Part shown: positions 3,243 to 22,279 of the stretch, piece after piece
Position numbering within the stretch: position 1 is the first letter of the stretch
Layout of the letters: every line of letters starts with the position of its first letter
NCBI GenBank assembly: GCA_964644135.1
Contig: CAZXWD010000005.1
Location: 4,491-61,227 of the forward strand
DNA length: 56,737 bases
Origin: an uncultured Bacteroidales bacterium
GTDB lineage: Bacteria; Bacteroidota; Bacteroidia; Bacteroidales; JAGOPY01
Reading direction: 5' to 3'
Position numbers and translations under genes: made by a program
Notes under the pieces: model-generated
Told to the model about the DNA's origin: nothing
The model's database searches: none
The model's input: only the letters and a program-made list of their open reading frames with translations

Positions 3243-5257
3243 TTCTCATCCGTTGTTTTGCAAGGTTCTTCAGTTCCGGGGGTTCTGAAAAGATCGAGTG
3301 CATCAGCGAGGTTTTTTGATCGCCCAAGCACAAAGATCACATCGTTTACCCGGAAGGTGAATTTCTTGTCGGGCAGCCTGATCATTTGCTGATTCCTGCT
3401 CACCGCGAGGGGGGTGAGCTTGTGATCTTTTGAAAACTGATCGACATCAATGGGGTTGCCTAAAATGGGGGCTCCCTCGCAAACATGGATCGAATGTATC
3501 TCAACCTCCGGGATGTTTACCGTAAGATTTGAAAAAGTGGCATCTTCCAGTGAAAGGCTGCGGAACATCTGGTATCCGTCAGACCTCACTTCCGCCACAA
3601 GCTTTTCTATCACATCATGGGGGATGAGGTATTTTGCAAGTACACGTGTAAAAATTTCAATGCTGGTCTCAAATTCTTCAGGTATCACCTCATCGGCGCC
3701 AAGAGCGAACATCTCCTTCATGTCGGAAATAAACCTTGTCCTGATGATAATGTGTACATGAGGGTTCATCCTTCTGGCGTTCAATATGATCCTTCGGGCA
3801 TCGCCAGGACTTGGAATTGTGACCACCAAAATAAGGGCTTCCTGGATATTGGCATGTGAAAGAACTTCGTGCTGAGTGGCATCGCCGTAATAGATAATTT
3901 CCCCTTGTTCGCGCTCTCTTCTGACGGTATCCGGGTTAATTTCGATTATCACATGAGGGATTTTGGCAAATTTTGCCGCCCTGGCCACATTCCTGCCGTT
4001 AATACCGTAGCCAACGATCACAAGATGGTCGGATATTTTGGCAATGGTGCTCTCAGGCTTTGGGAACAAGCCATACCTGAGCTTATCGGGCAAAGGCCAT
4101 TTCATGATCATGTCAGAGGCTTTAGTAGCCAGCTTGATCACTATGGGTGTCGCAGCCATACTTAATACTGAAATAGCAAGGAAAAGCTGGTAATTCGACT
4201 CTGAGAGGATCCCTTCATCCATTCCGATCTCGGACAGGATAAAGCTGAACTCTCCCACCTGGCTCAGCGTGAAACCTGTGATTATAGCAATCCTCAATGG
4301 AAAGCCGAGAATAAACGCAGCTGCTCCCGCCAGGAATGTTTTTACCGAGAGCACGAGGGTGGCAAAGAGCAGGATGGAAATAATGTTATCGATGAAAAAT
4401 GTGACATTGAGCAGCATTCCTATTGAAATGAAGAAAAATGAGGTGAATACGTGTAAAAAAGGTATGACATTGCCCAGTGTCTGCTGGCTGTATTCTGACT
4501 CAGAGATCATCAGCCCTGCCAGGAATGCCCCCAGCGCCAGTGACAACCCTGCACTGTAGGTCATGAATGCGATGGCAAAAGCCAGCACCATAACACTGAT
4601 CAGGAAGAGTTCCCTGCTCTGTGTCCTGGCAACCTGGTACAGGATCCTGGGCAGGATGTATTTTGCCCCGAGGATTACTATTGCTGCAACAATGACGGCT
4701 TTAATGAGGATCTCGATCACTGATCCGCCCATAGCATCTGAATTACCGGCCAGGAAAGGAGTGATGAGCATCATCGGTACTATGATGATATCCTGGAATA
4801 TAAGGATCCCTAGTGAGATCCTTCCGTTTGGTGTATCAATATCACCTTTGTCCTGCAACAGTTTCAGAACTACAGCCGTACTGCTGAGGGCAATGAGAAA
4901 ACCTATGAAAACTGATTCGTTCATAGGGTTACCCATTCTCCTGGCAATCAGGAATATCACGGCAATCGTAAGAAGGACCTGAAAAGACCCGCCTATAAGT
5001 AAGATCTTCCTGATCTTGATGAGGCTTTTCAGTGAGAATTCAATGCCGATAGTAAAGAGCAGGAGTATGACACCGATCTCAGCCAGCACCTCCACATCGT
5101 GCACATCGGTGATGATCTGCAACCCGTGGGGGCCTGCCAGCACACCGGTAATGAGCAAGCCAATTACCTCCGGGATCTTGAGTTTATTAAACACCCAGAG
5201 CAATACAACGGCCAGTCCCAGGATCAGAACTATGTCTTTCAGGAATTCAAACTCCAT
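3239..5257 (-). CDS. CPA2 monovalent cation:proton antiporter with TrkA-N/TrkA-C domains (Kef-like)
   Basis: [28 protein letters not shown] motifs; VGYGINGR Rossmann; YGDAT. Confidence 0.9.
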
Positions 5258-5276
5258 GGGAATTGTTTTGCAAGGG

Positions 5277-5284
5277 CAAATATA
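5277..5284 (-). promoter_or_regulatory. sigmaA -7 element (TATATTTG) for the Kef-like gene
   Basis: Exact TAnnTTTG 20 nt before ATG. Confidence 0.6.
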
Positions 5285-5340
5285 GCTATTTTGTCACCTG
5301 CATTGGAAGGTAAGATAACAGCAGAAGGGCAAAATTCCGA

Positions 5341-5547
5341 TCAGTTAAGCGTGCTCTGTGTTTTCTTTCTGCTCTCTTCCTTTGCCGCACAGCATGCCCC
5401 CGACATTGTGCAAATCATGAACAATATGATGGCAGATGCGAAAAGTCCAAGTGTTACATAGCAAAACGAAAACTCGAAGAATGACATCACAAGGCTGATC
5501 AGTCCCAAACCTCCCAGGGTCAGTGCGATATATGGTATCCTTTTCAT
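5341..5547 (-). CDS. Small hypothetical 2-TM membrane protein
   Basis: 68-aa ATG ORF filling an intergenic gap; two hydrophobic stretches, Cys cluster, basic tail. Confidence 0.55.
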   Translation of the reverse strand: MKRIPYIALTLGGLGLISLVMSFFEFSFCYVTLGLFASAIILFMICTMSGACCAAKEESRKKTQSTLN

Positions 5548-5654
5548 AGGGTTGATACTTATTTCAAATATAGCCTTCTAAAACACGCATTCGAAATAAA
5601 TAAATGTGACATATATCAAATTTTTATATACCAAAGATCATATTCAGGTGCAAC

Positions 5655-5680
5655 AAAAAACCCGGCTTTCAGGCCGGGTC
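5655..5680 (-). terminator. Intrinsic terminator after rplS
   Basis: Minus strand GACCCGGC-CTGAAA-GCCGGGTT followed by a T run. Confidence 0.85.
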
Positions 5681-5701
5681 TGTTAGGTATTCTTGTTATT
5701 C

Positions 5702-6055
5702 CTAATATCTTGCTTCCTTGATCCTTGCTTTCTTTCCCCTGAGTCCTCGCAGGTAGAATATCCTTGCCCTGCGTACAACACCTCTCTTATTAATAGCGAT
5801 TTTTTCAATGAAAGGGGATGAGATCGGAAAGACCCTTTCCACACCCACGTTGTTGGAGATCTTCCTGACAGTGAAGGTTTCAGTGGGGCCGGAACCTCTG
5901 CGCTGTAAAACCACCCCCTGGAAATTCTGGAGCCTTTCCTTGTTCCCTTCCTTGATCTTGTAAGTAACTGTTATGGTATCTCCTGCTGAGAATTTGGGAA
6001 CCTCTTTCTGTTCAGTTAACCCCTCTACAAATTGCATTGTTTCGTTCTTGCCCAT
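5702..6055 (-). CDS. rplS: 50S ribosomal protein L19
   Basis: [41 protein letters not shown]. Confidence 0.98.
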
Positions 6056-6096
6056 GGTGATAATCTCCTTTTGATCAGTGATTTCAAAAATGAGTG

Positions 6097-6104
6097 CAAA
6101 TATA
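6097..6104 (-). promoter_or_regulatory. sigmaA -7 element (TATATTTG) for rplS
   Basis: Exact TAnnTTTG about 40 nt before ATG. Confidence 0.6.
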
Positions 6105-6172
6105 CAAGGATTTTTTTAATGCACAATCAAAATAGGCAAAAAACCTTTATCGATTCAGAAAAAATATGATGC

Positions 6173-6853
6173 TCAACCTTCCAGCAGATCAGGGCGTCTT
6201 TCCTTTGTGCGCTCCATTGCCTTCTTTGTCTTCCATTCCCTGATCTTTGCATCATGGCCCGAGAGAAGGACATCAGGCACCTTCCATCCCCTGAAATCGG
6301 CGGGGCGGGTATAAACCGGAGGTGACAGAAGACCGTCCTGGAAAGAATCTGACAGGGCAGAGGTTTCGTCACCCAGCACACCGGGGATCAATCTTAGCAG
6401 GCTATCGGTGAGGATGCCTGCCGCCCATTCACCGCCCGAAAGCACATAATCCCCAATCGAGATCTCTTTGGTGATATAGTTTTCCCTTATCCTTTCATCA
6501 ATTCCTTTATAATGGCCGCAAAGCAGTATGATGTTTGAAAGTGTCGACATCCGGTTGCATTCGGCCTGGCCGAGCAGCTCACCATCCGGCGTCAGGAAAA
6601 TGATCTCATCATAATGCCTCTCTTCCTTGAGCTTATCCAGGCAGGCTGCCAGGGGCCCAGGTATAAGCACCATTCCTGCCCCGCCTCCGTAAGGGTAATC
6701 GTCAACACTCCGGTATTTGTTGTCAGTAAATTCCCTCAGGTCGTGAATGACCACCCGGGCAAGACCTTTTTCAACAGCCCTTGCCGGAATGGAATAGGAA
6801 AACGGACTGGTGAAAAAATCAGGGAATATGGTAATGATGTCTATCCTTAGCAT
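6173..6853 (-). CDS. trmD: tRNA (guanine37-N1)-methyltransferase
   Basis: VDDYPYGGGAGM, CGHYKGIDER, IGDYVLSGGE motifs. Confidence 0.98.
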   Translation of the reverse strand: MLRIDIITIFPDFFTSPFSYSIPARAVEKGLARVVIHDLREFTDNKYRSVDDYPYGGGAGMVLIPGPLAACLDKLKEERHYDEIIFLTPDGELLGQAECNRMSTLSNIILLCGHYKGIDERIRENYITKEISIGDYVLSGGEWAAGILTDSLLRLIPGVLGDETSALSDSFQDGLLSPPVYTRPADFRGWKVPDVLLSGHDAKIREWKTKKAMERTKERRPDLLEG

Positions 6854-6950
6854 GCCCTAAAATTAAGAATATCCGCTCAAACAAATGCTTTAGCCTATTG
6901 TTTAAGTATAATGAGATATCTTTATTAATAACAATTGTTGATGAGTTTCG

Positions 6951-10953: not shown

Positions 10954-11521
10954 AAGGATACCTGATAGTAATTATAAGCATGTTGGATTAGCTGCACTGG
11001 CCGGGTTTCTGGTATGGATGTTTTTGTCCTCAGGGCTGGTTTCCTGTCGTAATGAGGCGGTTAGAAACAAAGAAAAGATCGATGGCAAGGAACTTGACCG
11101 GTCGTTGATTGAAGCCAATAAAAAGGCTGTTGAAACCGAGGATCAGCAAATAGAAGACCTTTTAAGCCGCTATAACTGGGATATGGAAACTACAGGGACT
11201 GGATTGCGGTATGTTATTGATGATCCGGGCGAAGGGCCTAAGATTAAAGATGGAGATAAAGTGACAATTAACTACGAGACCAGGCTCATTACGGGAGATG
11301 TAGTATATTCGTCGGATGAAGACGGACCCCTGACCTTCGTTGTGGGTAAAAGTGACGTGATTGCCGGCGTACAGGAAGGTGTAAGGATGTTGGGAAAAGG
11401 GGGCAAGGCAAGGCTCGTAATCCCATCCCACCTTGGATATGGTCTTATCGGTGATCAGGACAAGATAAGGCAAAAAGCCACATTGATATACGAAATTGAA
11501 GTTTTAAATTATACTAATTAA
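10946..11521 (+). CDS. FKBP-type PPIase lipoprotein, GldI-like
   Basis: Lipobox LVSC; TGTGLRY...IPSHLGYG..GD FKBP domain; lies between a DHH gene and a second PPIase. Confidence 0.75.
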   Translation: MNRRIPDSNYKHVGLAALAGFLVWMFLSSGLVSCRNEAVRNKEKIDGKELDRSLIEANKKAVETEDQQIEDLLSRYNWDMETTGTGLRYVIDDPGEGPKIKDGDKVTINYETRLITGDVVYSSDEDGPLTFVVGKSDVIAGVQEGVRMLGKGGKARLVIPSHLGYGLIGDQDKIRQKATLIYEIEVLNYTN

Positions 11522-11544
11522 TTGAAAATCTTATTTTTTTTATT

Positions 11545-12909
11545 ATGAAGAAATTCAAAAACCTATTTATTTATTCATTTCTTTCGGTAACCATATTCTT
11601 ATTTTTCGGTTGTGAACCGTCGAAACATCCGGGTTTCAAGAAAACCGGCACAGGGCTGTATTATAAGATACATACCCCTGAAAACAATGATACTAACAAT
11701 GTTGAAGTTGGAAAGGTCATCACTCTTGACATGAAGTACAAGATTGGGGATTCGTTGCTTTACAACAGCGATCAAATGCCTACTCCCGTTATGTTCCCTG
11801 TAATGGAACCTCAGTTTGAAGGCGACATATATGAAGGTTTTCTGATGCTCGTTAAAGGCGATAGCGCCACCCTCATAGTGGATGCGGAAGATTTCTTCGT
11901 GAAGACTGCAAATCAGCCGCAGGCACCCGAATTTATATCAGAGGGCGATGAGATGATCTTCGAGATCAAGATACGTGACGTACAGTCTGAAGAAGAAGTA
12001 CAGGCGGCAGAAAGGGAGCGCCTTATGAAACGCCAGCAGGAAGAAAGGGAATTGATAGTGAATTATGTACATGATAATGAAATAACCGTAACGCCCACGG
12101 AATCTGGCATCTACTATATTGAGATAAAACAGGGAAGAGGTAAAACGCCTGAAGAGGAGCAATGGGTTTCAGTTCATTATACAGTGCACACCCTGGAAGG
12201 GCAGAGGCTTTTCTCCACCCGCGACAAAGGTGAGCCGATAGATTTTCAGATCGGGAAAAGGTTTGAGAATGAAGGGTTCCAGGAAGTTGTCGGGTTGATG
12301 CGTGAAGGGGGCGTTTCAGAGGCGCTGGTCCCCAGCAGCATGGCTTTTGGTGCACAGGGTGCCGGTCAGGTAATCCAGCCATTCACGCCTTTGTACTATG
12401 AAATTGAGCTGGTTGATATCATGACCATAGATGAATGGGACAGAAAACAAGCCGATAAAAAAGCAAAACAATTTGCTGAAGAGCTTGAAAGGAAGGAAGA
12501 AGAAAAAGCTATAATCAGTGAGTACATTAAGGATAACAACATTGTACCAACTGCTCAGACAGAAGAAGGACTGATCTATGTTGAAGAAGTAAAAGGCGAC
12601 GGCCCCAAACCGGAAAGAGGCGACAAAGTAAAAGTCCACTATACAGGCATGACACTCGACGGGGAAGTGTTTGATTCATCAGTTGAGCGCGGAAAGCCTT
12701 TCGAATTCAATGTTGGCCGCAACATGGTCATTCAGGGATGGGACAAAGGTATTCCTTTGATGAATGTCGGAAGCAAGGGCAAGCTAATCATCCCGTTTGA
12801 TATGGCTTATGGTGTGCGTGGTGCACCGGGGAGCATTGAGCCCTATTCAACCCTTGTTTTTGAAGTGGAACTGCTTGAGATAGTGGAAGAAGCAGAAAAC
12901 CAGGAATAA
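11545..12909 (+). CDS. Multi-domain FKBP-type PPIase lipoprotein
   Basis: Lipobox FFGC; three FKBP-like repeats, the last canonical (VHYTG..FDSS..GWDKG..AYG). Confidence 0.88.
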   Translation: MKKFKNLFIYSFLSVTIFLFFGCEPSKHPGFKKTGTGLYYKIHTPENNDTNNVEVGKVITLDMKYKIGDSLLYNSDQMPTPVMFPVMEPQFEGDIYEGFLMLVKGDSATLIVDAEDFFVKTANQPQAPEFISEGDEMIFEIKIRDVQSEEEVQAAERERLMKRQQEERELIVNYVHDNEITVTPTESGIYYIEIKQGRGKTPEEEQWVSVHYTVHTLEGQRLFSTRDKGEPIDFQIGKRFENEGFQEVVGLMREGGVSEALVPSSMAFGAQGAGQVIQPFTPLYYEIELVDIMTIDEWDRKQADKKAKQFAEELERKEEEKAIISEYIKDNNIVPTAQTEEGLIYVEEVKGDGPKPERGDKVKVHYTGMTLDGEVFDSSVERGKPFEFNVGRNMVIQGWDKGIPLMNVGSKGKLIIPFDMAYGVRGAPGSIEPYSTLVFEVELLEIVEEAENQE

Positions 12910-13743
12910 TTACCTGGAAACTATAAACCAGGGATTCAAAAGATTTTCTTTATTGTACCTGAGAGGCCGGCCTGTGCCGGCCTCTTTTATCTCTGCACCT
13001 GAAAATTCAGCAACTGCATGGCCTGCTGCAGTGTCCCACTCCATCGTAGGGGCAAATCGTGGATAAATATCTGCTGATCCTTCCGCTACAATGCAAAGCT
13101 TGATAGAGCTTCCTTTGGAGGCAAATTCAAGGTCCGGGTGCTCTTTTTTTATTTCATCAACAAACTCTTGCGTTTCAGGCGACATATGCGAACGGCTGCA
13201 TACAACTGTGTAAGGCCTTTCACTTGTGGTACTTAGTGGCAAAGAACGGCCCTCCGGCAGGTCAGGCAGTAAAAAGCTGCCATCCTCATTTCTGACCACC
13301 TGTGTTTTCCTGGATCTCCAGCCCAATCCCCCGTAATACATATCGCCCGAAACCGGAATGAAAACAACTCCCAACACCGGATTTCCGTCTTTAATAAGAG
13401 CTATGTTGACTGTGAACTCACCGTTCTTTTTGATGAATTCCTTGGTCCCATCAAGGGGGTCCACAAGCCAGAACAAAGGCCATTTTGAACGGTCGGAGTA
13501 AGGGATTTCCTTACCTTCCTCACTTACGACAGGGATATCATAGGGATTGAGGATGGATACGATCATCCTGTGTGCATTCTTGTCAGCCAGTGTCAGAGGG
13601 GACTTGTCGTCTTTTAGCTCAACATCGATTGTTGTCTTGTAAACTTCAAGGATTTCTTCCCCTGCCTTTAGCGCAGCTTTTACCGCCAGTTTCAGCAATT
13701 GATCTATACTAGCTCGATTTTCAGTTGTAAAGGTGTTCGTCAT
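12910..13743 (-). CDS. cysQ: 3'(2'),5'-bisphosphate nucleotidase CysQ
   Basis: [39 protein letters not shown]. Confidence 0.95.
12962..12990 (+). terminator. Intrinsic terminator for the FKBP operon, embedded antisense within cysQ
   Basis: AGAGGCCGGC-CTGT-GCCGGCCTCT-TTTAT, a perfect 10-bp stem 52 nt after the FKBP stop. Confidence 0.7.
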
Positions 13744-15805: not shown

Positions 15806-16558
15806 TCAAACGACGAAAGGAATAATTGCTTTGCGTTCATCCGGGTAATCGTCGAACTTTTCCTGGTACCATTGATGGTGGTTTATAGCCCTTGGAATAA
15901 GGTTTGCCATAGTCCAGACCATGAAAGAAAAGGCCGGAAGCGACCATGCCATAATGGCAAAACCGGTCCACTCGATGATCTCGCCAAAGAAGTTAGGACA
16001 TGAGATATAGTTGAAAAGGCCCCCTTTGGGTATGTAGTAGCCCGTGTCTCCTTTCTTTCTCAGGTTGATAAGCTTATTGTCGGCATATTGATTTATAGTG
16101 AATCCGGTAATAAAAATGATGATGCCGGGGATGAAATGGAGCAGGGATATCTGTTCATAGGGTTCTGCAAACCATCCCAGCCAGTAACCATTTATAGACC
16201 CGTTAACAAGGTTGAAAAACACCGCCGATAAGGCAATTATCAGGGGCATTTTCTTGTTCTTTGTCCTGGTCCGGAAAGGAAATATGAATATCCTGTTCAC
16301 ATAGTGCAACGTGAACACCGAAAATATGATCCATTTATAAATGTCCTTTTCCAGGGGGCCCGTAAGGTAAAAATAGACGAAAAGAGCCAGGGTCGGGAAT
16401 TCCATGATGAACCAGCCAAGCTTGTTGTCTATCATGGGGCCCCAGCCTTTGGTGGTGTGTCTTCCGTAGGGTGTCCTGATCTTTAAAAGAAAAGGAAAGG
16501 TCACCAGCGCCACTCCAATCCAGATGAGAACCAGTATGGTAAAAAGGTTTTCCGACAT
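15806..16558 (-). CDS. 3-oxo-5-alpha-steroid 4-dehydrogenase (steroid 5-alpha-reductase, SRD5A family)
   Basis: PYGRH, GWFIMEFP, HYVNR, YYIPKGGLFNYISCPNFFGEIIEW, RAINHHQWY..KF..YP..RKAIIPF match SRD5A motifs. Confidence 0.85.
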   Translation of the reverse strand: MSENLFTILVLIWIGVALVTFPFLLKIRTPYGRHTTKGWGPMIDNKLGWFIMEFPTLALFVYFYLTGPLEKDIYKWIIFSVFTLHYVNRIFIFPFRTRTKNKKMPLIIALSAVFFNLVNGSINGYWLGWFAEPYEQISLLHFIPGIIIFITGFTINQYADNKLINLRKKGDTGYYIPKGGLFNYISCPNFFGEIIEWTGFAIMAWSLPAFSFMVWTMANLIPRAINHHQWYQEKFDDYPDERKAIIPFVV

Positions 16559-16561
16559 GCT

Positions 16562-17542
16562 TCAACGAATATAGTTTTCCTTTTTGAAAAATTCCATAGT
16601 GTCCTTAAGGGTGTCTTCTATGGGCCTTGAACTGTATCCAAGGTCTTTCATTGCCTTATCACCGATGATCTTTCTGCTCCCTGTCCTGATGATATCAAGG
16701 GAAGCGCTTGTGTATAGCGGGTGCTGATCAAGCATTGAATAGTAGGCCCCGATAAAGGGAACACCGATCCGTGCCAGCCAGAAAGGTATGGTAAGGGTAG
16801 GGGTGGGCCTTTGGACGATTTGAGAAAGTGTTGCTGAAAGTTCACTTAGGCTGAGCCAATGGCCCGGAAGAAGATAACCCTCACCGCTCTTCCCCTTTTC
16901 CATCGCATTTATGGCACCACGGCACACATCCCTGACATCTACCCAGTTATATCCTCCGGGCACAAGGGCAGGGATCTGCCTGTTGTAAAGCCTGATCAGC
17001 AACTGGCCAACGAGACTGGGCTTGTAATCATTAGGTCCGATAATTGATGTTGGGTTGATCACTACGGCATCTATCCGGTTTTTGGCTGCTTCCCTTATCA
17101 GCTTTTCGGCCGACGATTTGGTACGCTCATAGGGCAGGGGATTGGTAGTTGCCAGTGGCCGTGTTTCATCCATCGGTTCATCAACCGGGGAATTTACAAG
17201 CGCATGTATGGAACTGAAATGGACCAGTCTTTTTACAGAGCTGTCCTTCAACGATTTGATGATGTTCCGGGTACCTTCAACATTGACTTTCTCAAGGTGT
17301 TTGTTTGTGCTTCCTTTGATTGAAATTATGGCTGCAAGATGAAAGGCAATATCAGCACCTTCGAATAGCTCATCTAATGCAGGTCTGTCCAGTATATCCC
17401 CTCTGACCATTTCAAGATCAAGGTCCTTTATGCCTCTGTCATCTTTATATACAAGAGCTTTAACCCTGTGCCCTTCCCGGAGGAGCATTCTGCAAAGGTT
17501 GGAGCCCACGTGACCGTTTGCACCAGTTACTGCTATTACCAT
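16562..17542 (-). CDS. Extended SDR NAD-dependent epimerase/dehydratase (3-beta-HSD/HpnA/DFR-like)
   Basis: VTGANGHVG, HLAA, NVEGT, HFSS, YERTK, NPTSIIGP; start moved to ATG 17542 (track TTG 17563). Confidence 0.85.
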   Translation of the reverse strand: MVIAVTGANGHVGSNLCRMLLREGHRVKALVYKDDRGIKDLDLEMVRGDILDRPALDELFEGADIAFHLAAIISIKGSTNKHLEKVNVEGTRNIIKSLKDSSVKRLVHFSSIHALVNSPVDEPMDETRPLATTNPLPYERTKSSAEKLIREAAKNRIDAVVINPTSIIGPNDYKPSLVGQLLIRLYNRQIPALVPGGYNWVDVRDVCRGAINAMEKGKSGEGYLLPGHWLSLSELSATLSQIVQRPTPTLTIPFWLARIGVPFIGAYYSMLDQHPLYTSASLDIIRTGSRKIIGDKAMKDLGYSSRPIEDTLKDTMEFFKKENYIR

Positions 17543-18270
17543 TTTGTTCAAATAAGGGCGCAAAATACAAAAAGCGGCTCAATGACGGGCCCCTGATCTG
17601 GTTTGAATTTGAACAATTTAATTTCTGATGTGGGAAAGTCATTGCTTTTCGCCTAAAAAGAAAAACAGAAGGGGAGAAGACCCTGTCGACAAGGAAAAGA
17701 AAGATCCGTGAAACTATATCATAATATCTTATGATGAAATCGCCGTACAGGTTCATTGTATTTTTTCCCGAACTGAAATTTTCTCTGGCCGGCACGGGCT
17801 GTCTGCCCGCATAGGATGGATCGTCAAGGTCCTGGAAGAGGATATCATCCGATTCAAGCTGTATAATTAGCCATCTGTAAACTTTTTTAAGAATACCGGG
17901 AAGTTTCTGAACAGGATGATCTGCTGAAACCTTGCCCATTTCCCATTCAACAGTATCTGACACATAATAATGATCAGTACTGTTAACAGGAATAGCTTCT
18001 ACTGAAGGCCCATCGCCTGAAAAGAATACAAATAACCATTCATCAACCACTCCGGAAATATTCTGGAATAATGATAAAGCACGTCCCTTAAAAGAATGTA
18101 AGGCTGTCCTTAATTTATTTGATGAATATTGGATCACTTTATAACCAGCTTTGACTTATGGAAAATAGTTTATCAAGGACAAATGTATTGTTATATAGTG
18201 CTGATAAAAAGTGTTTTAAGTGATAAAATATAACCTTAAAGAATAAGTTAAGCTTGTTGAAATTTAAAAA

Positions 18271-18358
18271 CTTAATTTAACTTAAGCTACTTAATTAAAG
18301 CTTAATTATAGCTTAAATATTTTTGTATTAGCTTAATTATTATCTTATATTTGCTTAA
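18271..18358 (+). promoter_or_regulatory. Phased CTTAA repeat array overlapping a full sigmaA promoter (-33 TTTG 18322-18325; -7 TATATTTG 18346-18353)
   Basis: CTTAA starts at 18271, 18281, 18290, 18301, 18312, 18332, 18354; the promoter elements are 20 nt apart. Confidence 0.65.
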
Positions 18359-18362
18359 TATC

Positions 18363-19511
18363 ATGGTAAATCTCTCTTTCATAGAGCCTCTCAATGAATA
18401 CCTTACAAGGAATGCTGTATCTATGGTTCCCTCGGCCAGCAGGTTAGTCAGCGTTCTCAGGGAAGAAGGGGAGTACCTGTTTTTTGAGCTTATTCCCGGA
18501 GATGAAGGGACTGAGATGGAAATCGCGGAGAAGCCCTATATATATGACATGATGAACAAGCTCAGGGAAAAGAATATGCCTTATGAATGGATGAATCCTG
18601 AGGATATTCCGTTTGAACGTGAAAATAGCACTGACAAAGAGAGGGATTTGTTCAGTGAGAAGGAAAATACTGTGCTGCTGATCCGTCATCCTGTTCCGGG
18701 TGTCGACCAGGCAGGCCTGCTATTCATATATTTCAGGAAGAATCTCAGTAATTTCGGGATCAGCCTTGCCGACAAGCCGCTTTCCACTGAGCACAAAGCG
18801 GTTTCAGGATACCTGATATCCAATGCCATTCGCAATTCTGTTGCATCATACGGAAAAGATCTTTCTACCTACAGAGAGCTCAATGAGAATATTAAGATGC
18901 TTATCAGGACCAATGAAACAAATGTCAGGGAACTTGAAAAGATCAGGGAGAATTATGGCGAAAGTCTTTTATCCTTTTGCAAGGTCCATTTGCAGGAACT
19001 ATCAGAAAAGCACAGGAGAAATTTTGTTTTATCGGATGATGCCATCAGAAGGATAAGGTCTTTTTCAGGAAATCTCTCGTTGTTAAAGCTGGTTCTTGAT
19101 GATGCAGCTTCATTTGTCAGCCAGGTTTATTATGATGATCCGGAGATTGACCTGGCTATACATGAATGGGAGCTGAATTTCGATAAATTCATGACTGTGG
19201 AAGCAGCCACACCTGAAACTCACCGTATTGACAACAGGGAATCGCGGGCAATGCAATTATTAGACAAGCTTGACAAGGCTGCACAGGAAGTGATCAGGAA
19301 CCGCCTCCCATTAACAAGCACAAACGTAGGTCAGCACTGTCCATCCCCCATCACTGCCCCGGCAATTACAGATGCTTTGAAAAAAAACCGGAAGCGTATC
19401 CTTCAGTTATTAAAGAAATATCCCGAAAAATGGAAGACCATCAGGTTTCAGTTCAGGCCTCTTAAGAATATCCAGGAGAAAGAACAGGGAAGTGATAACC
19501 TTGCCATTTAG
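18363..19511 (+). CDS. Hypothetical protein, putative DNA-binding regulator
   Basis: Long clean ORF with its own promoter; ATG 18363 (track TTG 18351); basic helical C-terminus. Confidence 0.8.
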   Translation: MVNLSFIEPLNEYLTRNAVSMVPSASRLVSVLREEGEYLFFELIPGDEGTEMEIAEKPYIYDMMNKLREKNMPYEWMNPEDIPFERENSTDKERDLFSEKENTVLLIRHPVPGVDQAGLLFIYFRKNLSNFGISLADKPLSTEHKAVSGYLISNAIRNSVASYGKDLSTYRELNENIKMLIRTNETNVRELEKIRENYGESLLSFCKVHLQELSEKHRRNFVLSDDAIRRIRSFSGNLSLLKLVLDDAASFVSQVYYDDPEIDLAIHEWELNFDKFMTVEAATPETHRIDNRESRAMQLLDKLDKAAQEVIRNRLPLTSTNVGQHCPSPITAPAITDALKKNRKRILQLLKKYPEKWKTIRFQFRPLKNIQEKEQGSDNLAI

Positions 19512-22251: not shown

Positions 22252-22279
22252 TTGTCCTATAATTAATATTATGTTAAAT
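22252..22279 (+). other. dif: XerC/XerD dif recombination site (chromosome dimer resolution)
   Basis: TTGTCCTATAA-TTAATA-TTATGTTAAAT: 11-6-11 layout; XerD arm identical to E. coli dif; C arm ends in ATAA; intergenic between convergent genes. Confidence 0.85.

What the first reader, a model, noticed from the sequence alone, without database searches (positions are those of the whole stretch)
18235..18358. Helically phased CTTAA array covering the promoter of an uncharacterised gene
Seen: CTTAA (often GCTTAA) starts at 18271, 18281, 18290, 18301, 18312, 18332 and 18354; intervals are 10, 9, 11, 11, 20 and 22, and 83 bp equals 8 x 10.4. Further partial copies lie at 18235, 18248 and 18344. The array brackets a canonical Bacteroidota promoter (TTTG 18322, 20 nt, TATATTTG 18346), and the ATG follows 9 nt later. 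Inference: the sites lie on one face of the helix, suiting cooperative binding or polymerisation of a protein, most simply the adjacent gene product. This would be an autoregulated module or a centromere-like/nucleoid-organising site about 4 kb from dif. It is my best candidate for an undescribed system.
Basis: partly seen in the sequence, partly recalled or inferred. Interest (0 to 1): 0.65.

Follow-up and report, generated by a model that had tools for sequence, protein, structure and literature searches.

The report
Phased CTTAA operator array, terminus-linked regulator
A ladder of CTTAA boxes spaced one DNA turn apart is woven through two back-to-back promoters and is conserved across an entire bacterial order, always next to an uncharacterised regulator that descends from sigma-54 activators but has lost its ATPase, and always close to the chromosome terminus.

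Summary
Eight CTTAA boxes lie in 124 nt, against 1.1 expected (0/20000 shuffles). It is the only such array in the 3.56-Mb genome.

The decisive evidence is comparative. About 50 homologous loci from many Bacteroidales families (protein identity down to about 25%) carry the same boxes (RCTTAA). The boxes sit at fixed places relative to the Bacteroidota -33/-7 promoter elements, with a 10.8-bp period. A sister genome has 0/51 substitutions inside boxes and 47/174 outside.

A second, divergent promoter has one box at exactly -41/-40 in 28/38 loci. It drives a fast-evolving gene of about 230 aa ("X").

The adjacent 382-aa protein has four parts: a GAF-like domain, a long helix, an NtrC-type AAA+ lid and an invariant basic helical C-terminus. 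It has no Walker A and no GAFTGA, and the promoters are not sigma-54 type.

Best reading (about 0.6): this is a self-contained divergent module in which this protein binds the ladder cooperatively. It would repress its own promoter (boxes at -20 and +1) and control X (box at -41). Binding itself is inferred, not shown.

Unexpectedly, the module lies 3-62 kb from dif in 10 of 11 well-assembled genomes from eight families. Neither the family nor the motif matches any curated family or any paper found.

The parts
18138..18362 (.). 225-nt divergent control region between gene X (minus strand) and the regulator gene (plus strand). It holds both promoters and all the boxes.
   Evidence: Compared with the congeneric genome G001, substitutions are 0/51 inside boxes and 47/174 outside (Fisher p = 2e-6).
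18271..18316 (+). Upstream ladder of five RCTTAA boxes (starts 18271, 18281, 18290, 18301, 18312; spacing 10, 9, 11, 11). The last box is the -41 box of the regulator promoter and abuts the -33 element.
   Evidence: In the family-wide histogram anchored on the -7 box, box starts pile up at -38..-41, -51..-53, -60..-64, -72 and -82.
18322..18325 (+). -33 element (TTTG) of the regulator promoter.
   Evidence: A TTG in the same place is seen in most loci.
18332..18336 (+). Box between the -33 and -7 elements (position -21 from the G of the -7 box).
   Evidence: 26 box starts at -18..-21 among 44 anchored loci.
18346..18353 (+). -7 element TATATTTG (Bacteroidota sigma-A type, TAnnTTTG) of the regulator promoter.
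   Evidence: 44 loci have TAnnTTTG, mostly 10-30 nt before the ATG.
18354..18358 (+). Box directly after the -7 element (position +1 from its G), over the expected transcription start.
   Evidence: TTTG|CTTAA in 10 loci from several taxonomic families.
18235..18239 (+). Distal plus-strand box. With TTAAG at 18216-18220 it forms an inverted pair, TTAAG-N14-CTTAA.
   Evidence: The same TTAAG-N13/14-CTTAA pair is present in L003, L004, L007 and L008.
18216..18220 (-). Box at -40 of the divergent promoter P_X (CTTAA on the minus strand).
   Evidence: a minus-strand CTTAA starts at -41/-40 from the G of the minus-strand -7 box in 28 of 38 loci.
18248..18252 (-). Second minus-strand box, at -72 of P_X.
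   Evidence: a secondary peak at -70..-72 (13 loci).
18180..18187 (-). -7 element of P_X (TACATTTG on the minus strand).
   Evidence: CAAAnnTA is conserved at this place in the family.
18363..19511 (+). Regulator gene (P0001, 382 aa). Domains: GAF/PAS-like (1-125), long helix (142-217), NtrC-type AAA+ lid (about 200-265), and an invariant basic helical C-terminal domain (292-381, 'LTxxNVG...PIxAPAITDALKK...YPEKWxxIRxxFRP').
   Evidence: The start codon is fixed by the conserved N-terminus xFSFI.
17460..18137 (-). Gene X (225 aa from GTG 18137). It is a fast-evolving protein of unknown function (motifs WELNQ and IRGPD) and is the divergent partner of the regulator.
   Evidence: homologous in 20 of 50 loci from at least 5 taxonomic families. 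No Pfam, NCBIfam, PDB, PADLOC or PHROG hit.
22259..22279 (+). Core of the chromosomal dif site (ATAATTAATATTATGTTAAAT), 3.9 kb from the array. It is context, not part of the module.
   Evidence: The GC-skew switch lies at about 20-22 kb.

Best explanation
The CTTAA ladder is the operator array of a self-contained, divergently transcribed two-gene module. The module consists of the regulator gene at 18363-19511 and gene X at 17460-18137.

The regulator descends from bacterial enhancer-binding proteins (bEBPs). It keeps a sensor domain (GAF-like), the AAA+ lid and the C-terminal DNA-binding region. It has lost the ATPase core and the sigma-54 contact loop.

Inferred mechanism:
- Subunits are held together by the long helix. 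Each subunit places one C-terminal domain on one RCTTAA box.
- The boxes are direct repeats about one helical turn apart (two turns apart within the core promoter), so bound subunits line up on one face of the DNA and bind cooperatively.
- At its own sigma-A promoter the boxes interdigitate with the RNA-polymerase elements: box at -41, then TTG, then box at -20, then TAnnTTTG, then box at +1. Full occupancy should therefore shut the promoter, which is negative autoregulation.
- At the divergent promoter there is only the -41 box, abutting the -33 element, plus boxes at -61 and -72. This is the classic position for an activator that touches RNA polymerase.
- The ligand of the N-terminal domain would set the degree of oligomerisation.

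Shown here: the array, its conservation, its register with the promoters, its uniqueness in the genome, and the descent and domain make-up of the protein.

Inferred only: that this protein is the binder, and the sign of regulation at each promoter.
For: 1. Conservation. 3-8 CTTAA boxes lie in the 170 nt upstream of almost every family member, across about 50 loci from many taxonomic families and at protein identities down to about 25%.
2. Fixed register. Relative to the -7 box, box starts pile up at +1, -20, -40, -52, -62, -72 and -82, with a 10.8-bp period.
3. Second promoter. P_X has a box at exactly -41/-40 in 28/38 loci.
4. Footprint between congeners. 0/51 substitutions inside boxes against 47/174 outside, p = 2e-6.
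5. Specificity to this locus. There is no second array in the 3.56-Mb genome. CTTAA at -41/-40 is not enriched among the 2306 other TAnnTTTG boxes (7 observed, about 5 expected, and two of the 7 are this locus).
6. Array hits at the family gene elsewhere. In other family-bearing genomes, non-satellite array hits lie directly upstream of the family gene (G222, G329, G064, G307, G194, G100, G129, G283).
7. Descent of the protein.
   - Pfam AAA_lid_14 matches a homologue at E = 6e-7.
   - The family profile matches the NtrC1 lid, PDB 4bs1, at E = 0.0026.
   - hhalign against a canonical Bacteroidales bEBP gives 81% probability, E = 1.2e-5, running from the sensor-I strand through the lid into the start of the HTH domain.
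8. C-terminal domain. The last 90 residues are the most conserved part. They are basic (20 K+R against 10 D+E) and all-helical.
9. Exceptions fit the pattern. The two members with the most altered 'APAITDA' helix (L017, L057) are also the ones with no clear array.
10. Copy number. There is one copy per genome.
Against:
- The C-terminal domain has no significant match to any HTH family or solved fold. Pfam HTH_8 is not hit. The best PDB fold hits are a KAT6A winged helix at probability 0.41 and the Mu I-beta domain. The profile search against PDB sequences finds nothing below E = 0.1.
- Box and putative recognition helix are both nearly invariant, so there is no real co-variation test. L067 keeps the helix, but its array lies farther upstream.
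- Gene X, or an unlinked factor, could be the binder.
- The direction of regulation is read only from box positions.
Confidence: 0.6

Rival explanations
1. The array is a chromosome-terminus element in which the promoter overlap is secondary, as with tus-TerB in E. coli or rtp-IRI in B. subtilis. The protein-array complex would act on DNA itself. It could be a replication-fork barrier, a terminus organiser, or a device that senses when the terminus has been copied. It would autoregulate only because its site sits on its own promoter.
For: The module is linked to dif.
- All 11 family-bearing assemblies with 50 or fewer contigs and a recognisable dif have the gene on the dif contig. The distance is 3-62 kb in ten and 240 kb in one, across eight taxonomic families.
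- In fragmented assemblies outside the window's own family, the gene is on the dif contig in 9/26. The control gene uvrB is there in 2/26.
- In the three complete genomes, uvrB lies 420-895 kb from dif. The control ltaE lies 2.0 Mb away in G317.
- The immediate neighbours of the module differ between families.
- A long one-faced protein ladder is a plausible physical barrier.
- tus and rtp also lie beside, and are autoregulated by, their own sites (textbook knowledge, not tested here).
Against: - Orientation of the module relative to dif is not constant. It points toward dif in families f1 and f126 and away in nine others. This argues against a polar fork trap.
- There is only one array per genome and no oppositely oriented partner on the other side of dif.
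- There is no similarity to Tus, RTP, MatP or ParB.
- Genes tend to keep their distance from the terminus by symmetric inversions, so linkage may be inherited rather than selected. uvrB also stays in the terminus-proximal part of the chromosome.
- The exact register of boxes with the -33/-7 elements at two promoters is what a transcription function predicts.
Confidence: 0.1
2. The boxes are bound by another protein: gene X's product or an unlinked regulator. The adjacent bEBP-like protein would then be merely a regulated target.
For: - DNA binding by the adjacent protein is not demonstrated, and its C-terminal fold has no confident DNA-binding relative.
- X is encoded at the same control region in 20/50 loci.
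Against: - X is not detectable in 30/50 loci that nevertheless keep the boxes and the -41 architecture.
- X has no recognisable DNA-binding features.
- An unlinked global regulator should have other sites, and none is visible in this genome.
- The array travels with the family gene across an order in which the gene is present in only 76/401 genomes.
Confidence: 0.15
3. There is no dedicated protein. Phased A/T-rich units give intrinsically curved DNA that acts as an UP-element-like promoter enhancer.
For: The region is 18% G+C. The units repeat with the helical period, which is the condition for static curvature.
Against: - Curvature needs phased A-tracts, not an invariant C-T-T-A-A with a purine before it.
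- The only G/C positions in the region are the ones conserved (0/51 substitutions).
- Boxes occur in both orientations, correlated with the direction of the two promoters.
- Nothing similar is found at the other 2300 promoter-like boxes of the genome.
Confidence: 0.04

Closest known systems
Bacterial enhancer-binding proteins with a GAF sensor (NifA, NorR, FhlA; PexR of Myxococcus, PMC12754779) and those acting at sigma-70 promoters (TyrR, VpsR)
   Same: - The domain order is the same: sensor, then AAA+ lid, then a C-terminal DNA-binding region.
- The lid and the preceding sensor-I strand are homologous.
- These proteins bind several upstream sites as oligomers.
- PexR and TyrR also repress sigma-A/sigma-70 promoters. 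For PexR this is from the abstract; for TyrR it is from my own knowledge.
   Different: - The whole nucleotide-binding core is missing: no Walker A and no GAFTGA in 69 members.
- Both target promoters are Bacteroidota sigma-A type, not -24/-12.
- The sites are 6-bp direct repeats in helical phase rather than dyads.
- The C-terminal domain is not recognised as HTH_8.
parC/ParR of plasmid R1, and iteron-type autoregulated arrays (from my own knowledge)
   Same: - There are about ten direct repeats of about 11 bp flanking and overlapping the promoter of the adjacent gene.
- The repeats are bound cooperatively on one face, giving autorepression.
   Different: - No partition NTPase gene is present.
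- The module is chromosomal, single copy and inherited across an order.
- The protein is not a ribbon-helix-helix protein.
- A second, divergent promoter is wired into the same array.
tus-TerB (E. coli) and rtp-IRI (B. subtilis) (from my own knowledge)
   Same: The gene of a DNA-binding protein lies near the terminus, and the protein's own site lies on its promoter.
   Different: - There is one array only.
- Its orientation relative to dif is variable.
- There is no sequence or fold similarity.
- No evidence of fork arrest exists.
PhoB/OmpR-type direct-repeat boxes and LysR-type divergent regulator-target pairs (from my own knowledge)
   Same: - Direct repeats have 10-11-bp spacing, with a box replacing or abutting the -35 region.
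- The layout is divergent: the regulator represses itself and controls its neighbour.
   Different: The protein folds are unrelated. The ladder is much longer (8-11 boxes) and extends over the transcription start.

Membership tests
Bacterial enhancer-binding proteins (NtrC family, sigma-54 activators) | AAA+ alpha/beta core with Walker A and Walker B motifs | tested here: not met
   - There is no Sigma54_activat or AAA hit in Pfam or NCBIfam.
- G....GK[ST] occurs in 1 of 69 members, and that occurrence looks spurious.
- The AF2 model shows an antiparallel GAF/PAS-like sheet followed by one long helix.
Bacterial enhancer-binding proteins (NtrC family, sigma-54 activators) | GAFTGA loop that contacts sigma-54 | tested here: not met
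   0 of 69 members.
Bacterial enhancer-binding proteins (NtrC family, sigma-54 activators) | AAA+ lid (sensor II) subdomain | tested here: met
   - Pfam AAA_lid_14 matches homologue P0012 at E = 6e-7.
- The family profile matches the NtrC1 lid, PDB 4bs1, at E = 0.0026.
- hhalign against a canonical bEBP gives 81% probability, E = 1.2e-5.
- The sensor-II arginine is replaced (GNLSLL in place of GNVREL).
Bacterial enhancer-binding proteins (NtrC family, sigma-54 activators) | C-terminal Fis-type helix-turn-helix (HTH_8) | tested here: inconclusive
   - The position and helix pattern correspond. The hhalign match runs into the first helix of the bEBP HTH domain.
- There is no Pfam HTH_8 hit.
- There is no significant fold match.
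Bacterial enhancer-binding proteins (NtrC family, sigma-54 activators) | Target promoter of the -24/-12 type (TGGCAC-N5-TTGC) | tested here: not met
   - The control region has no match with up to 3 mismatches.
- Both promoters are of the TTG / TAnnTTTG type.
Plasmid-type centromere (parC/ParR, parS/ParB) | Adjacent partition NTPase (ParA, ParM or TubZ) and a small adaptor protein | tested here: not met
   The neighbours are gene X, an SDR, a steroid-reductase-like protein, threonine aldolase and UvrB. Neighbours vary between families.
Plasmid-type centromere (parC/ParR, parS/ParB) | Array of phased direct repeats bracketing the promoter of the adjacent gene | tested here: met
Replication terminator systems (Tus-Ter, RTP-Ter) | Gene near the terminus with its own site on its promoter | tested here: met
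   The gene is 3-62 kb from dif in 10 of 11 well-assembled genomes.
Replication terminator systems (Tus-Ter, RTP-Ter) | Several sites on both sides of the terminus, oriented toward it | tested here: not met
   There is a single array in this genome. The module's orientation relative to dif differs between families.
Replication terminator systems (Tus-Ter, RTP-Ter) | Polar arrest of replication forks | not testable with these tools
   This needs 2-D gels or marker-frequency sequencing.
Bacteroidota sigma-A promoter | TTG near -33 and TAnnTTTG near -7, with a short leader | tested here: met
   - In the window: TTTG at 18322, TATATTTG at 18346, ATG at 18363.
- The same elements are present in 44 loci on the regulator side and 38 on the X side.
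- Transcription starts were not mapped.

The most novel reading that the evidence does not exclude
The module is a previously unrecognised terminus-associated DNA-protein device of Bacteroidales. An ATPase-less bEBP descendant would polymerise on a one-faced CTTAA ladder kept within tens of kilobases of dif. That complex would act on the chromosome itself, either by pausing forks or by reporting when the terminus has been duplicated, for example through titration of the protein when the array doubles, which would fire gene X. It would then be a functional analogue of tus-TerB or rtp-IRI in a phylum where no termination or terminus-organising factor is known.
Probability: 0.1. Interest if true: 0.85.

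Novelty: new variant of a known kind. Interest (0 to 1): 0.62.

Why it matters
- **A rare clean case of cis-regulatory logic in Bacteroidota.** It shows two sigma-A promoters whose -33 and -7 elements are interleaved at base-pair precision with a helically phased operator ladder. The arrangement is conserved over an entire order, and the only plausible binder is encoded next door.
- **An evolutionary end point not described for enhancer-binding proteins.** The ATPase motor has been deleted, while the sensor, the lid and the DNA-binding end survive and are re-used at ordinary promoters.
- **A sizeable unannotated family.** It has about 440 clusters at 50% identity in public data. No Pfam, NCBIfam, PADLOC or PHROG model matches the window protein, and one homologue matches Pfam AAA_lid_14 only.
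- **An open question about the terminus.** The tight, family-independent linkage to dif is unexplained. It makes a question about terminus biology in Bacteroidota directly testable.

Tried and rejected
- **Chance or low complexity.** Rejected by shuffles, genome-wide uniqueness and conservation.
- **A wider regulon.** None is visible in this genome: there is no second array, and CTTAA at -41 is not enriched at other TAnnTTTG boxes.
- **The order-wide three-box pattern search.** It was too noisy to use for presence/absence correlation, because micro- and minisatellites and coding repeats dominate and the reversed control pattern is equally frequent.
- **The second-best cluster in the genome (C25:5645-5876).** It is a coding 12-nt tandem repeat beside an assembly gap.
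- **A sigma-54 promoter.** Absent.
- **An RNA element or DNA hairpin.** There is no Rfam hit, and the fold z-score is -0.9.
- **A defence system or phage origin.** There are no PADLOC or PHROG hits.
- **An Xer-integrated mobile element (IMEX).** No second dif-like site flanks the module, and housekeeping genes lie between the module and dif.
- **Identity of the C-terminal domain.** The separate AF2 model is good (pLDDT 82), but it has no significant PDB fold or sequence relative. A Myb-like resemblance at 'KYPEKWxxIR' has E of about 0.9 and was not used.
- **Gene X.** The profile search against PDB and Pfam finds nothing.
- **Family-less relatives G008 and G011.** They also lack the neighbouring SDR, so they say nothing about module boundaries.
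- **Literature.** No paper was found on a CTTAA operator or an ATPase-less bEBP in Bacteroidota.
Full report
**1. The observation**

CTTAA starts at 18271, 18281, 18290, 18301, 18312, 18332 and 18354. 18235 is a further full copy. 18248-18252 and 18216-18220 are copies in the opposite orientation (TTAAG). 18344 is only CTTAT. TTTG is at 18322, TATATTTG at 18346-18353 and ATG at 18363, as stated.

The 124-nt core is 18% G+C and holds eight CTTAA.
- Dinucleotide shuffles give a mean of 1.1 and a maximum of 6 (0/20000).
- Some 5-mer or other reaches eight copies in 2% of shuffles, so the window alone is suggestive rather than conclusive.
- In the whole assembly (3.56 Mb, 298 contigs; the window is C5:4491-61227) this is the top CTTAA cluster.
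- The only rival is a coding 12-nt tandem repeat beside an assembly gap.
- Only one other place has three same-strand RCTTAA within 65 nt.

**2. Conservation**

The gene behind the array (P0001, 382 aa) has no Pfam or NCBIfam hit. It does have homologues:
- in 17 of 41 close relatives;
- in 76 of 401 genomes sampled across the order, covering 45 of 237 genera, with one copy each;
- in none of 400 genomes sampled across the rest of the phylum.

One homologue is labelled 'Bacteroidales bacterium' by NCBI. In a library of 1.84 billion representative proteins the family has 440 clusters at E <= 1e-10. Nearly all of the 150 best listed are 365-400 aa and match over their full length; about ten are shorter fragments.

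I oriented about 50 loci and fixed each start codon by the conserved N-terminus xFSFI. Almost every one has 3-8 CTTAA in the 170 nt upstream, and CTTAA is usually the most frequent 5-mer there. This holds even for members scoring only 78-130 bits against the family profile.
- Three apparent exceptions (L067, L069, L057) have boxes farther upstream. In L067 and L069 these form an array; in L057 the four boxes are scattered.
- L017 has a single box.
- The extended motif is ttRCTTAAwt, with A or G (45% each) before the C.
- Between the window and the congeneric genome G001 (protein 92% identical), the 225-nt control region has 47 substitutions in 174 non-box positions and none in 51 box positions (Fisher p = 2e-6).

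**3. Register with the promoters**

I anchored each locus on the G of the -7 element (TAnnTTTG) nearest the ATG. Box starts then pile up at +1 (TTTG|CTTAA), -18..-21, -38..-41, -51..-53, -60..-64, -72, -82, -95, -105 and -116. A genus-specific extra box sits at -27.

The core promoter therefore reads: box, 4-6 nt, TTG, about 6 nt, box, about 9 nt, TAnnTTTG, box. The RNA-polymerase elements are sandwiched between boxes two turns apart, and a one-turn ladder runs upstream.

Periodicity is significant.
- Pooled over 35 loci and 180 sites, the best period is 10.8 bp with R = 0.53. The null 99th percentile is 0.215 (0/2000).
- Independently of the anchor, the per-locus mean R^2 is 0.53 against 0.27 (0/500).
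- Individual spacings range from 8 to 13 and from 20 to 23. The ladder is therefore phased, not metronomic.
- The loci are related, so these are not independent trials. However, outside the boxes the spacers have diverged freely.

**4. A second promoter**

On the minus strand there is a conserved TAnnTTTG, 136-300 nt from the family ATG. In the window it is TACATTTG at 18180-18187. In 28 of 38 loci a minus-strand CTTAA starts exactly 41 or 40 nt before its G, directly abutting a TTG. Further boxes lie at -60..-62 and -70..-72, and none at -20 or +1. In the window these are TTAAG at 18216-18220 (-40) and at 18248-18252 (-72).

This promoter drives a divergent ORF of about 200-250 aa, 'X' (17460-18137 in the window).
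- X evolves fast (14-22% identity to the window copy in alignment A3).
- Iterated profile search finds it homologous in 20 of 50 loci from at least five taxonomic families. Its motifs are WELNQ and IRGPD.
- X has no hit in Pfam, NCBIfam, PDB sequences, PADLOC or PHROGs.
- Beyond X, synteny (SDR upstream, threonine aldolase downstream) holds only within the window's own taxonomic family.

**5. The protein**

AlphaFold2 on a 16-sequence alignment gives mean pLDDT 80.
- Residues 1-125 form an antiparallel alpha/beta domain. Its best fold matches are GAF domains (probability 0.97-0.99, but E only 0.02-0.03).
- Residues 142-217 form a single long helix.
- A small helical domain follows, then a six-helix C-terminal domain.

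The middle part is an NtrC-type AAA+ lid.
- Pfam AAA_lid_14 matches one homologue at E = 6e-7.
- The family profile matches the isolated lid of Aquifex NtrC1 (4bs1) at E = 0.0026, and also matches VpsR.
- The genome search with the profile also picked up proteins of about 460 aa through positions 202-306 only. Two of these were fetched. They are canonical REC-AAA+-HTH activators with GETGTGK, GAFTGA and GNIREL.
- hhalign of the family against one of them gives 81% probability, E = 1.2e-5. Family positions 166-307 pair with activator residues 265-427. That stretch runs from the sensor-I strand ('LIRTNE' against 'LITATNRD') through the lid to the first helix of the HTH domain.

The protein is therefore a bEBP descendant in which the nucleotide-binding core has been removed. 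Walker A is present in 1/69 members (spurious) and GAFTGA in 0/69. Neither strand of the control region has a -24/-12 promoter within three mismatches.

The last 90 residues are the most conserved part ('LTxxNVGxxxPxPIxAPAITDALKKxxxxIxxLxxKYPEKWxxIRxxFRP') and are basic. They occupy the position of the Fis-type HTH. However, they are not recognised as HTH_8. A separate, confident model of this domain (pLDDT 82) has no significant fold relative, and the profile search against PDB sequences is empty. DNA binding is therefore inferred from descent, position, charge and conservation. It is not shown.

**6. Who binds, and what it does**

The array travels with the family gene across an order in which only one genome in five has the gene. 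It is unique in this genome, and CTTAA at -41/-40 is not enriched among the other 2306 TAnnTTTG boxes (7 against about 5 expected, and two of the 7 are this locus). Among the rows that the three-box pattern search listed, the hits that are not simple repeats in family-bearing genomes fall directly upstream of the family gene in eight genomes.

A dedicated, locally encoded binder is the economical reading. The bEBP descendant is the only conserved candidate, because X is undetectable in 30 of 50 loci that keep the boxes. The two members with the most altered 'APAITDA' helix (L017, L057) are also the ones without a clear array. That is a hint, not a co-variation test.

From box positions I infer two things.
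- **Own promoter:** occupancy of -20 and +1 excludes RNA polymerase, giving negative autoregulation.
- **P_X:** the -41 box abutting the -33 element acts as a class-II-like contact point, more likely activating.

The long helix and the one-faced ladder suggest cooperative, ligand-tuned oligomerisation. These steps are inference.

**7. Terminus linkage**

The site ATAATTAATATTATGTTAAAT is at 22259, and the cumulative GC skew turns over at about 20-22 kb.

I searched the relaxed core ATAA-N6-TTATGTTAAAT in family-bearing genomes and compared the places with those of the gene.
- All 11 assemblies with 50 or fewer contigs and a dif match have the gene on the dif contig. The distances are 3.3, 6.2, 8.8, 9.3, 12.8, 14.5, 15.3, 29.5, 33, 62 and 240 kb, across eight taxonomic families.
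- In the window the distance is 2.8 kb. In G249 dif lies 74 nt behind the stop of X.
- In fragmented assemblies outside the window's family, the gene is on the dif contig in 9 of 26.

Two control genes lie even nearer to dif in the window.
- **uvrB:** on the dif contig in 2 of those 26, and 420, 523 and 895 kb away in the three complete genomes.
- **Threonine aldolase:** unlinked outside the window's family, and 2.0 Mb away in G317.

The linkage is therefore real and tighter than that of its neighbours. I could not build a proper null for positional inheritance by symmetric inversions, and uvrB shows that some terminus-proximal drift-resistance exists anyway.

Three points count against a polar fork trap.
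- The module points toward dif in two families and away in nine.
- There is one array per genome.
- Nothing resembles Tus, RTP, MatP or ParB.

No second dif-like site flanks the module, so it is not an Xer-integrated element. I leave this as an unexplained, well-documented association and as the basis of the novel case.

**8. Comparison and verdict**

The array works like the long autoregulatory direct-repeat arrays of parC/ParR, or like PhoB-type boxes. The layout is that of a LysR-type divergent pair. The protein descends from bEBPs but fails three of the five defining bEBP features tested here, so it should not be filed as one.

No curated family covers the protein, and no paper was found on the motif or on ATPase-less bEBPs. 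A noncanonical GAF-bEBP that also represses a sigma-A promoter (PexR, PMC12754779) is the nearest published behaviour, but it keeps its ATPase and sigma-54 function.

I rate this a new variant of a known kind: an operator array with a dedicated regulator. It has an unusual regulator lineage, unusually precise promoter interleaving, and an unexplained terminus linkage.

An earlier first-reader note on the same gene (e1-5251743) proposed the degenerate-bEBP reading. My searches test and support it.

Noticed in passing
window 18138-19511 relative to dif at 22259; loci in G002, G004, G005, G006, G012, G013, G038, G083, G138, G176, G249, G271, G283, G307, G317, G323, G329, G361: The module stays within 1-67 kb of the dif site in 18 of the 19 genomes where both could be placed (240 kb in the other), across about ten taxonomic families, although its immediate neighbours differ. 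Controls uvrB and threonine aldolase are much less linked. Orientation relative to dif is not constant.
   Followed up: partly
window 17460-18137 (minus strand): Gene X is a very fast-evolving ORF of about 200-250 aa (motifs WELNQ, IRGPD). It is paired divergently with the regulator in at least five taxonomic families and has no relative in any library searched. Its 3' end overlaps the annotated TTG start of the SDR gene (17563) by about 100 nt, so one of the two boundaries is probably wrong.
   Followed up: partly
own genome C25:5645-5876 (outside the window): A coding 12-nt tandem repeat (CCTAATCTTAAT, an Asn/Leu/Pro-rich stretch after a signal-like N-terminus) is interrupted by a run of N. 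It is an assembly gap inside a repeat.
   Followed up: no
G012:C2:2743596-2745618: uvrB of this relative is split, with three in-frame TGA in the first 215 codons. It is either a pseudogene or a sequencing or frame problem.
   Followed up: no
G214:C91, G285:C19, G024:C50, G060:C35: A few family members carry one internal stop codon in the six-frame match. This suggests occasional decay of the regulator gene, or assembly errors.
   Followed up: no
window 15806-17563 (minus strand): A steroid 5-alpha-reductase-like gene (PF02544) and an HpnA/3-beta-HSD-like SDR gene form an operon next to X. This neighbourhood is conserved only within the window's own taxonomic family, so it is probably not part of the module.
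   Followed up: partly
L071 (G283:C44) 4858-6873 and L075 (G138:C33) 11048-13063: In two unrelated families an ORF of exactly 671 aa lies between dif and the module. I did not identify it or check whether the two are homologous.
   Followed up: no
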